Shown piece by piece: positions 26,601-29,600 of a stretch of DNA of 64,000 bases. The number at the start of each line of letters is the position of its first letter. Within the stretch, counting starts at the first letter, position 1. The stretch covers positions 1 through 64,000 of the forward strand of contig JBFWJG010000004.1 of the NCBI GenBank assembly GCA_050253335.1. Direction: 5' to 3'. Source of the DNA: Deferribacterales bacterium (lineage in GTDB: Bacteria > Chrysiogenota > Deferribacteres > Deferribacterales > Geovibrionaceae). Position numbers: made by a program.

Positions 26601-29600
26601 AATATGTGAGTTTTGAAAAAGCGTATAAGCACGCAGGAGGGGTGAAATGATTTCTATACTGGTTAAGATGTTCTCGGGCGCGATGCTCGGTGTGGCGAAG
26701 GCTTTTCTTACGGAAAAAATAATTACTCTGGTTGTGGTGGAGGTGCTCAAAGAGCTCGCCGCTTCAACAAAAACGACCATAGACGACCGCATAGTGAGTG
26801 AGGTTGCCGCTTCTCTTGGAATGGTGGATCTCTCCGAAATCAAAAAGAAGCTTTAAGCGGGGGACAGCATGGGAAAGAGAAGAACATCGGCTGAGATACT
26901 GAACAGCGTTTTTGAATCGGCTGACCAAAGCCTTAAAGCAAAATACAAAACAGAGGACGAAGTGCTGAACCTTGTTTTTGACCGGCAGTCCGGCAGGCTT
27001 AAAGTCGATCTGGAAGGGGGCGGTGGAAGCAAGCCTTACTCCAATCCCCTTGAAACATACGCCTCAACAGATCCTGCGGGGGTATTGGGCGGCGGACTGC
27101 TGTTCGGGAATCTGAGCGGCTCCAAGAAATGGATTGGCGGAGCTCTGGCGCAGAACGGGAAGGTTTACTGCGCGCCTAATGATGCCTCCCAGATACTTGA
27201 AATAGACCCTGTGACCCGTGAAACATCTCTCTTCGGCTCATTCAGCGGTTCCAATAAATGGATTGGCGGCGCTCTTGCGCCAAATGGAAAGATATACTGC
27301 GCGCCTTATAATTCGCCTCAGGTTCTGGAGATTGACCCCGTGGCAAAGACGGGAACTCTCTTCGGAGCCCTGAGCGGTTCGTCCAAGTGGTACGGAGCCG
27401 TGCTTGCTCCCAACGGGAAAATATACTGTGCGCCTTATAATTCGACTCAGGTTCTGGAAATTGATCCGGCGACACAGGGCACAAGGCTTTTCGGCAGTAT
27501 AAACGGAGCAAGCAAATATGTCGGCGGTGTCCTCGCCCCTGACGGGAAGATATATTTTATCCCGCTTTCAGCAGGGCAGATTATGGTTCTTGACCCGACG
27601 GCAGACTCGGTGGAGTTCTTCGGCACACTGCCTGATGATGTGCTGTATAAATGGGCATCAGGCGCTCTTGCGCCAAACGGAAAGATATACTGCGCGCCGT
27701 ATCAGGAAACACGGGTGCTTGAGATAGACCCTCTGACTCGTGAGACTGTTCTCTTCGGAGAACTGAGTGCAGGGAGCGGGAAGTGGAGCGGCGGTGCTCT
27801 CGCGCCGGACGGCAGAATATATTTTGCTCCGCTTAATTCCTCTCAGATTCTCTCTGTTGACCCTTCGTCAAGGGAAGCGAGCTTGTTCGGGAATGTCGGC
27901 GGTTCGGTGAATATGTTTGCGGGTGCGGTTGTTTCCCCGTCCGGCGGGGTAATTTTTGTTCCGAATTCATCGGCAAAGGTGCTTGAGATTCGTCAGGGCG
28001 CTCACGGCAGTCAGTGGTGGGCGCTGAACGCATACACCAATAAGTTTTAAAGGGGCGGATGATGGAAGTTTTTGAAAAATGGCTTGAGAACCTTGCGGCC
28101 TCAATGACGGATGAAGAGATAAACGGGGCAATTGCGGCGCATCTGACGGCATATGACGATGACGGGAATATAGTTTATGAGCCTTCGGCAGAGGATATTG
28201 AGGCAGTGCGGTTTGAGCATTATGCCGCGCTCCGCAGGGGTTCATACGGCTCATGGCAGGAACAGCTTGATAAACAGTATGCCGGAACATGGGAAAGCCA
28301 CGTGGCGGCAGTGAAGGCGAGGTTCGGGAAAATGTAAAAAGGTCGCAAAATTGGTTGAACGCTGTAGTAAACTCCCGTTCTCGTCTCTCTGTAAATAAAA
28401 AAGGCCTCTGATAAAAAATCAGAGGCCTTTTTTAAGTGCCGGGGGGGGGACTCGAACCCCCACAGGATTAACTCCCACAGGATCCTTAGTCCTGCGTGTC
28501 TACCAATTCCACCACCTCGGCGAGTTATAATCTCTCAAGCGAGAACGAATTTTTATCAGCTTTATCCTTTCGTGTCAACAATAAAATTTAAAAAAAATTT
28601 CAAATGCTTAAACCGTCTTTTTTACTTACAGACTTAACAAAAAACCCCGCCTGAAAAGCGGGGTCCGTGTTCTTATTTTTTATTCATTTTCGGAGCGAGG
28701 TGTCTGCTGTATTCCTTGTCCTCGTGCATTATATGGTTTTTCAGCCAGTCCTGCAGAAAGCTCATCAGGTTGAAGCCTATAACCTCTTTCCCTTTCTTGT
28801 AATTGTCAAGGAACTGCCCGACAGCTTCTTTCAGCTTGTCGTGGGATTTTATGTGGTTTGCGCTCTGGGGAAAGCCGTATTTCTGAAATGCTTTTTCCTC
28901 TGAGTCGAAGTGGTACACAGTGTATTCAACAAGCTCGTTCAGGGTGCGCTCAAGCATCTGTTTGCCTTTGTCCTGCCTGATAGCGTTGTAGAGGTTATTA
29001 ATGATGCTCACAAGCTTCTTGTGCTGCTCGTCGAACTGGTGAACCCCTGTTTCAAGGCTTTTTGACCATTTGATGAACTCGTCCCCGCCGGATGTTTTGA
29101 ACCCTGACACGCTCCCTGCAAGGCTTTTGGTTACATCCAGAAGGTTGCCGCCCGCTATGACCGATTCGTTGGCCATGTGAAGGATGTTTGCCGACATATC
29201 AGAGATTTCCACCGTACTGCTGGAAACTTCTCCGAGGGCGAGGTTTTCCTCCTCCATGGCGCGCACTATGCCGTTAAGCTGGCTTGTGAGCTCGTTTATG
29301 CTTTCCGATATTATATTGATTGAGTTAACCGATTCTCCGGAGAACTCTATTCCTTTCTCAACATTTTCCACACCTTCCTGAACCTTGCCGAAGACATCGT
29401 TAATCTTGTACTGAAGCTCCCTGATAACAGCGCCTATCTGCTCTGTGGAGTCTGTTGTTTTTCCGGCAAGCTTGCGCACTTCGTCCGCTACAACGGCAAA
29501 GCCTCTGCCGTGTTCGCCCGCTCTTGCCGCCTCGATTGCGGCGTTAAGGGCGAGAAGGTTGGTCTGATCCGCTATTTCCTTGATGGAAACGACAATATTC

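What a model noticed while it worked through the whole genome (the two positions that open the first line are those of the whole stretch)
28436..28521. tRNA-Leu(AAG) replaces tRNA-Leu(GAG): an independent expansion of wobble adenosine/inosine in Deferribacteres
CUU/CUC leucine codons are read by a housekeeping tRNA-Leu with anticodon AAG; there is no tRNA-Leu(GAG). The swap is fixed in five families of Deferribacterales and a second order, excludes GAG, and the AAG tRNA arose from the CAG isoacceptor, which implies a TadA with a second substrate.
Evidence so far: ARAGORN calls Leu AAG, CAG, TAA, TAG, CAA only; CTT+CTC are 64% of Leu codons, 84% in ribosomal proteins, CTA 1%. The AAG pattern is in 33 of 33 genomes of families f1-f5 and 0 of 30 of f6-f8; AAG also in 2 of 2 f9 genomes. 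An exact GAG pattern is in 0 of those 35, in 28 of 30 f6-f8 genomes and 3 of 3 outgroup genomes. AAG is identical to this genome's CAG tRNA at 78 of 86 positions against 65-66 for two GAG tRNAs of relatives. tadA is present (g02109).
(Added by a program. Inside this text positions count along the whole contig: contig position 1 is position 1 of the stretch shown here. "Call 12" and the like, gene names such as g00115 and contig names such as C1 are that model's own, and its searches are not shown. The text may have been shortened before it was handed on; [...] marks where a part breaks off. The agent that wrote the report below was given it as the finding of a first reader that could run no searches.)

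Follow-up and report, generated by a model that had tools for sequence, protein, structure and literature searches.

The report
Leucine tRNA with adenine wobble base
This bacterium and most of its class read the leucine codons CUU and CUC with a tRNA whose anticodon starts with A instead of the usual G, probably edited to inosine, a trick proven in streptococci that turns out to have arisen in many bacterial groups.

Summary
Confirmed. Window 28436-28521(-) is an intact tRNA-Leu(AAG). One pattern that scores AAG and GAG alike found AAG in 33 of 33 genomes of families f1-f5 and GAG in none of them, GAG in 28 of 30 f6-f8 and 3 of 3 outgroup genomes; f9 has AAG (2 of 2, looser pattern). CUC is 29% of this genome's leucine codons, so A34 is probably edited to inosine by TadA, as shown in Streptococcus; the loop CUAAGGA fits the published TadA motif. 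Inosine is not shown: the RNA runs did not cover the gene. Corrections: the AAG genomes are not one clade, so AAG is probably old in the class with GAG kept or regained in f6-f8; the 78/86 match to CAG is inflated by 3' homogenisation, though the anticodon arm is CAG-type; the CUU/CUC bias is mostly a trait of f1; no TadA residue tracks AAG. Leu(AAG) also appeared in 80 of 80 loci checked, labelled with ten phyla, so this is one of many gains; the scan noted that breadth earlier on other DNA. New member of a known kind; Deferribacteres absent from papers I could search, two key papers unreadable.

The parts
28436..28521 (-). tRNA-Leu(AAG) gene; long variable arm, A73 discriminator, no encoded CCA, one acceptor-stem mismatch A5.C68
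   Evidence: ARAGORN; Rfam 53.1 bits, (one non-standard pair marked); same mismatch in the AAG genes of G027, G028, G029
28483..28489 (-). anticodon loop C32-U33-A34-A35-G36-G37-A38; A34 is window position 28487, the predicted inosine site
   Evidence: sequence; same loop in all 34 class AAG genes for which the whole gene was held; fits YUAMGRA (10.1101/2023.09.19.555891, passage)
28549..28578 (-). sigma-70-like promoter candidate (TTGACA, 18 nt, AAAAAT) 28 bases ahead of the tRNA
   Evidence: 1 found, 0.3 expected in shuffles; a consensus match only
28396..28434 (.). hairpin with A and T runs on both sides just behind the tRNA, terminator-like
   Evidence: inverted self-match; not listed by the terminator scan
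28367..28435 (-). 3' trailer alike to the trailer of this genome's tRNA-Leu(CAG) gene; probable scar of exchange or of an integrating element
   Evidence: 87% over 155 bases including the tRNA; trailers of 11 genome pairs printed

Best explanation
The gene is the cell's ordinary reader of the leucine codons CUU and CUC. It took the place of tRNA-Leu(GAG) early in class Deferribacteres, built on a CAG-type anticodon arm in which C34 became A and U32 became C. That gives the loop CUAAGGA, which in most of the class differs from the TadA substrate tRNA-Arg(ACG) (CUACGGA) only at base 35. TadA then deaminates A34 to inosine, so one IAG tRNA reads CUU and CUC. Shown here: the gene, its spread, exclusion of GAG, heavy CUC use, loop sequence, tadA presence. 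Inferred: transcription, charging with leucine, inosine, TadA as the enzyme, direction of the history.
For: Spread and exclusion. Need for a CUC reader: 18,828 CUC codons, 28.6% of Leu; 80 of 226 Leu codons in ribosomal proteins. All six other four-codon boxes of G000 have a G34 tRNA (Ala GGC, Gly GCC, Pro GGG, Ser GGA, Thr GGT, Val GAC); only the Arg and Leu boxes use A34. No cmoB over cut-off in 5 of 5 genomes tried. Arms: AAG CAGGA-CT-AAG-GA-TCCTG in 28 of 34 genes, CAG of f2-f4 CAGGA-TT-CAG-GA-TCCTG in 10 of 11, GAG C(C/T)ATC-TT-GAG-GG-GGT(G/A)G in 18 of 18. Arg: 58 of 68 genomes matched, all ACG, none GCG, most with loop CUACGGA. tadA in 67 of 68 with HAE and PCxxC intact in 49 of 49 sequences extracted. 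Across other phyla 61 of 81 AAG matches have CUAAGGA and 75 of 81 have A38; C32-A38 contacts TadA Lys106/Asn123 (PMC3711424, passage). I34 in Leu(AAG) is shown for Streptococcus (PMC13249217; 10.1101/2023.09.19.555891).
Against: No RNA evidence: four RNA contig sets covered only partial matches from other organisms' tRNAs. A34 tRNAs can stay unmodified: O. oeni Thr and Ser (PMC8072771, passage), and four-codon-box ANN tRNAs work in E. coli (10.64898/2026.05.15.725136, passages and section 14). E. coli TadA did not edit Leu(AAG), so presence of tadA is not enough. No TadA column separates AAG from GAG genomes in the class apart from one N-terminal position. In genus g1, the window's own, the Arg loop is CUACGAA, two bases from the Leu loop. 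C32.A38 is also the loop of the TAG isoacceptor, so it need not reflect TadA. The AAG effect on CUY use is weak after GC correction (p=0.09, 10 family means, not independent).
Confidence: 0.78

Rival explanations
1. A34 stays unmodified and reads CUU and CUC (or the whole box) by loose wobble; TadA keeps tRNA-Arg as its only substrate.
For: Unmodified A34 tRNAs exist in O. oeni; A34 tRNAs of four-codon boxes are tolerated in E. coli; no TadA change tracks AAG.
Against: CUC is heavily used even in ribosomal proteins (in f9 CUC exceeds CUU, 47 to 33 and 47 to 32); every Leu(AAG) tested so far in the papers read was edited; the loop converges on the TadA motif from different parent tRNAs.
Confidence: 0.15
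2. CUC is read mainly by tRNA-Leu(UAG) with a hydroxylated or unmodified U34; AAG serves CUU only.
For: A peptidase U32 protein, the family that holds the U34 hydroxylase TrhP (link recalled), is in 5 of 5 genomes tried; UAG tRNA is present.
Against: No cmoB; the six other boxes keep a G34 tRNA for C-ending codons; the U32 protein is also in GAG genomes.
Confidence: 0.05
3. The AAG gene is accessory or phage-borne and the true GAG gene is merely unassembled.
For: G000 lacks several tRNAs; a phage-like head and tail block ends 100 bases behind the gene.
Against: 33 of 33 and 0 of 33, six genomes in 1-2 contigs, while the same pattern finds GAG in 28 of 30 more fragmented genomes; flanks differ between families while the gene is kept.
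Confidence: 0.02
4. History, rival to 'one early gain, GAG regained': AAG and GAG coexisted along the backbone of the class and were sorted by loss, or f9 gained AAG separately.
For: The GAG arm of f6-f8 is the canonical one, close to f10, and cannot come from the AAG arm by one change; G081 holds both tRNAs; the f9 AAG has its own D-stem and scores 70 of 86 to a clostridial AAG against 74 to the best class AAG; the genome tool lists f9 as a separate order while my trees put it beside f6+f7.
Against: No genome of the 68 holds both; f6+f7 nest inside AAG lineages with 94/98 and 99/95 support; E at the S. aureus D104 position is shared by 45 of 46 class TadA sequences, GAG families included, and by 0 of 3 f10.
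Confidence: 0.45

Closest known systems
tRNA-Leu(IAG) of Lactobacillales (Streptococcus, Oenococcus, Lactobacillaceae); PMC13249217 (first 10,000 characters and passages read), 10.1101/2023.09.19.555891 (passages, section 41)
   Same: AAG gene in place of GAG, never both in a family; UAG and CAG kept; loop fits YUAMGRA; homodimeric bacterial TadA present; the S. pyogenes structure 2NX8 shares K-F-G-G after the D104 position.
   Different: Other phylum; closest sequences are the class's own AAG and CAG genes (only 3 Lactobacillales AAG genes were in my set); no C-terminal extension in the G000 TadA (159 aa); not limited to AT-rich genomes (G000 49% GC); inosine untested; GAG lineages nest inside AAG lineages.
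Bacterial tRNA-Arg(ICG)/TadA (PMC3711424, passages)
   Same: A34 gene excludes the G34 gene; same C32-U33-A34-N-G36-R37-A38 loop; Zn motifs and Lys106 kept.
   Different: A35 instead of C35, long variable arm; D104 is E in the class.
Scattered Leu(AAG) genes in Prochlorococcus and Mycoplasma (named in PMC13249217) and unmodified A34 tRNAs of O. oeni (PMC8072771)
   Same: A34 in a four-codon box outside Arg.
   Different: Prochlorococcus AAG has a different arm (CACGT-CT-AAG-GA-GCGTG); modification state unknown to me there.

Membership tests
Lactobacillales-type tRNA-Leu(IAG) | intact tRNA-Leu gene with anticodon AAG | tested here: met
Lactobacillales-type tRNA-Leu(IAG) | tRNA-Leu(GAG) absent, across the lineage | tested here: met
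   0 of 33, 0 of 2; pattern search, could miss an odd GAG gene
Lactobacillales-type tRNA-Leu(IAG) | anticodon loop fits the TadA motif YUAMGRA | tested here: met
   CUAAGGA in 34 of 34 genes held whole; motif
Lactobacillales-type tRNA-Leu(IAG) | intact tadA in the genome | tested here: met
   (E 2.8e-40 to 2B3J); under the NCBIfam cut-off in 58 of 68 genomes
Lactobacillales-type tRNA-Leu(IAG) | inosine at base 34 in vivo | tested here: inconclusive
   RNA contigs of 4 runs, 1 study, did not cover this organism's tRNA
Lactobacillales-type tRNA-Leu(IAG) | TadA deaminates Leu(AAG) in vitro | not testable with these tools
   needs purified enzyme
Lactobacillales-type tRNA-Leu(IAG) | leucine codon shift from UUA to CUU/CUC against GAG relatives | tested here: inconclusive
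   strong in f1 only; p=0.09 on 10 family means from ribosomal proteins
Lactobacillales-type tRNA-Leu(IAG) | common descent with the Lactobacillales gene | tested here: not met
   best matches are class AAG and CAG genes; so it works like that system but is a separate gain, on a thin sample of 3 Lactobacillales genes

The most novel reading that the evidence does not exclude
tRNA-Leu(IAG) arose about ten times or more across bacteria, from different parent tRNAs, by converging on the loop CUAAGGA and without any shared change in TadA, so many bacterial TadA enzymes are latent two-substrate deaminases; and Deferribacteres hold a reversal, in which families f6-f8 dropped IAG and took back a canonical GAG gene while keeping the altered TadA loop. 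That would give natural sister pairs for asking what inosine buys and would widen the pool of relaxed-specificity TadA enzymes.
Probability: 0.3. Interest if true: 0.72.

Novelty: new member of a known kind. Interest (0 to 1): 0.5.

Why it matters
Recent papers treat Leu(AAG) as almost confined to Bacilli (PMC13249217) and AT-rich genera. A fixed swap in a class with GC-moderate members, cultured thermophiles (recalled) and nested GAG lineages is an independent replicate for two open questions: how bacterial TadA gains a second substrate, and whether I34 drives codon recoding. The wider scan suggests many more replicates, among them clades of Verrucomicrobiota. The mechanism itself is known, and the class's tRNA annotations have probably been public for years (recalled, not checked).

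Tried and rejected
RNA editing test: 4 RNA runs of one study held 8-20% of the words of window 28400-33970; laid on 28280-28760 they gave only 31-51-base partial matches with unlike flanks and no row at 28487: no verdict. 'K-F-G-G loop of TadA is the Leu determinant', suggested by 2NX8: rejected, K-F-G is in 20 of 20 class GAG genomes and 0 of 28 TadA sequences from other AAG lineages. Synteny of AAG with GAG or CAG loci: no shared flanking gene across families, uninformative. First pattern had one base too many and found nothing. Four fetched operon regions of f7 gave 1 of 27 proteins and G041 gave 4; these 5 genomes plus none else of the 39 with hits were dropped from trees and codon counts, leaving 34 of 40 regions (the G044 region gave no usable hit). 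AU test on the composition-trimmed alignment did not finish. TadA was extracted from 49 of 50 class and outgroup loci (G004 missed) and 29 of 30 other loci (G069 missed; G101 left out of the count as a class member). Literature searches that found no statement on Deferribacteres: (listings) and term searches in PMC13249217, PMC8007984, PMC6063277, PMC8072771, 10.64898/2026.05.15.725136, 10.1101/2023.09.19.555891 (0 hits for 'Deferribacter'). Rafels-Ybern 2018 and 2019 are not held; figures and supplements were not seen.

Full report
Observation. Window 28436-28521 on the minus strand is a tRNA-Leu with anticodon AAG (ARAGORN; Rfam RF00005, 53.1 bits, E 7.9e-11). A34 is position 28487. A sigma-70-like site lies 28 bases ahead (consensus match only) and a hairpin with T and A runs lies just behind (not listed). 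The acceptor stem has one mismatch, A5.C68, kept in 4 of 4 genomes of the genus; the CAG gene of G000 has a mismatch at the same pair. The genome has 33 tRNA calls with Leu AAG, CAG, TAA, TAG and CAA and no GAG, but it also lacks Ile, Lys, Glu and Asn calls, so its own silence proves little.

Spread. One pattern with R at base 34 was run on all 68 genomes of the phylum: AAG in 33 of 33 genomes of f1-f5, GAG in none of them; GAG in 28 of 30 of f6-f8 and 3 of 3 of f10; four genomes without a match. A looser pattern gave AAG and no GAG in both f9 genomes. No genome held both. Six AAG genomes are in one or two contigs. Flanking genes differ from family to family, so the gene is not tied to the phage-like block beside it here.

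Why inosine is likely. CUC makes up 18,828 codons, 28.6% of leucine, in 2092 ORFs called by my script; CUU+CUC is 64.5% and CUA 1.1%. In 23 ribosomal proteins CUU is 111 and CUC 80 of 226. The six other four-codon boxes all keep a G34 tRNA, and cmoB was not found over its cut-off in 5 of 5 genomes, though a peptidase U32 protein is present in the same 5. So CUC most simply falls to the AAG tRNA. Its loop is CUAAGGA in 34 of 34 class genes held whole, which fits the S. pyogenes TadA motif YUAMGRA (10.1101/2023.09.19.555891, passage); C32-A38 is a TadA contact (PMC3711424, passage). The Arg tRNA is ACG in all 58 of 68 genomes matched, mostly with loop CUACGGA, one base from the Leu loop; in the window's own genus, f9 and f10 it is CUACGAA. 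tadA matched in 67 of 68 genomes with intact zinc motifs. Against: E. coli TadA does not edit Leu(AAG); O. oeni leaves two A34 tRNAs unedited (PMC8072771, passage); A34 tRNAs of four-codon boxes are tolerated in E. coli (10.64898/2026.05.15.725136, passages and section 14); C32.A38 is also the TAG loop. The direct test failed for lack of cover: four RNA contig sets from one study gave only short matches from other organisms.

Origin. The anticodon arm of AAG (CAGGA-CT-AAG-GA-TCCTG in 28 of 34) matches the CAG arm of f2-f4 (10 of 11) at all but bases 32 and 34, and the CAG pattern hits of f6 and f8 have the same CAGGA stem in part; the GAG arm is quite different. AAG is closer to the own CAG (63-83 identities) than to the best GAG (60-71) in 27 of 27 genomes, in three of them by only 1 or 2. 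The 78 of 86 quoted for G000 is inflated: likeness runs about 70 bases beyond the 3' end (87% over 155 bases), and one trailer stands behind AAG in G031 and behind CAG in G023, as expected if integrating elements use both genes and swap 3' parts (inference). A CAG parent is likely; conversion of the arm of an older gene is not excluded.

History. Trees were built from 27 proteins of the S10-spc-alpha region (34 of 40 regions usable). With 21 genomes and a site-mixture model, f9 joined f6+f7 (85) and f8 fell among f2-f5 (100); holding the AAG genomes together was rejected (AU p=0.0019; f8 and f9 are long branches). After removal of composition-biased columns, 16 genomes gave f1+(f9+(f6+f7)) at 94/98 and 99/95, f8 unresolved at the base, and 0 of 200 bootstrap trees with AAG as one side; the AU test on this set did not finish. 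Rooted on f10, the simplest reading is an early gain of AAG with GAG regained or kept in f6+f7 and perhaps f8. The genome tool lists f9 as another order, which disagrees with my trees; the outgroup is distant. TadA has E at the S. aureus D104 position in 45 of 46 class sequences and 0 of 3 f10 sequences, a class trait that does not follow today's anticodon.

TadA determinant. K-F-G-G is shared with S. pyogenes 2NX8, but K-F-G is also in 20 of 20 GAG genomes of the class and in 0 of 28 TadA sequences from other AAG lineages. It is not the general determinant.

Codons. CUY share of leucine in ribosomal proteins is 0.66-0.85 in f1, 0.20-0.52 in other AAG families and 0.14-0.68 in GAG families; the AAG term is +0.19 after GC correction, p=0.09 on 10 related families.

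Breadth. Of 34 of these genomes, 1 also had a GAG match. In 151 genomes sampled from the phylum of G096, 147 matched; of the 146 listed I counted by eye 29 with AAG and 117 with GAG, one AAG genome having a second GAG-pattern hit without a stem. Loops converge: CUAAGGA 61, UUAAGGA 14, other 6 of 81.

What is known. Leu(IAG) is proven in Streptococcus and O. oeni; PMC13249217 (first part and passages) says almost all such genes are in Bacilli and names Mycoplasma and Prochlorococcus besides. 'Deferribacter' has 0 hits in the six main texts searched, and nine library searches listed no paper on the point.

Verdict. Real, fixed, and most likely an inosine-edited housekeeping tRNA (0.78). It works like the Lactobacillales system and is a separate gain. 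New member of a known kind; interest 0.5, carried by the nested GAG lineages and by the unreported breadth rather than by the mechanism.

Noticed in passing
window 16596-28337 (+): Phage-like block ending 100 bases behind the tRNA: head protease, decoration protein, major head protein and endolysin among 11 proteins scanned, no terminase or portal among them. Kept full length beside the tRNA in G027 (87%) and G029 (76%), in pieces in G028, G030, G023: possibly a domesticated prophage or transfer-agent-like module.
   Followed up: partly
L206-L285; G102-G251: tRNA-Leu(AAG) in many phyla, notably Akkermansiaceae and Opitutales clades of Verrucomicrobiota, Actinomarina, Synergistaceae, some Lachnospiraceae, nearly always without GAG.
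   Followed up: partly
L267, L215, L210: AAG genes that keep a GAG-type arm and loop (UUAAGGG), i.e. a direct G34A change; a different route from the one here.
   Followed up: no
G081 (L248): One genome labelled Myxococcales holds AAG, GAG and CAG together.
   Followed up: no
L058 (G031) and L077 (G023): The same trailer, with an integrase-like ORF behind it, follows AAG in one genome and CAG in another.
   Followed up: partly
G004, G005 (f9): Small genomes with CUC above CUU and CUA at about 26% of leucine codons in ribosomal proteins; no Leu(CAG) found by pattern or among G004 tRNAs read.
   Followed up: partly
L143, L203, L204 (G054, G058, G061): The 16.5 kb fetched from rplC onward gave only 1 of 27 operon proteins: the S10 operon may be split after rplC in genus g18.
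   Followed up: no
window 28673-30310 (-): Chemoreceptor-like ORF of 545 aa with a C-terminal hemerythrin-like part (read by eye, motif recalled, not scanned).
   Followed up: no
window 26869-28050 (+): 393-aa ORF with about seven repeats of a WxGxxLAPNGKIY-like unit inside the phage-like block; PHROG match of unknown function.
   Followed up: no
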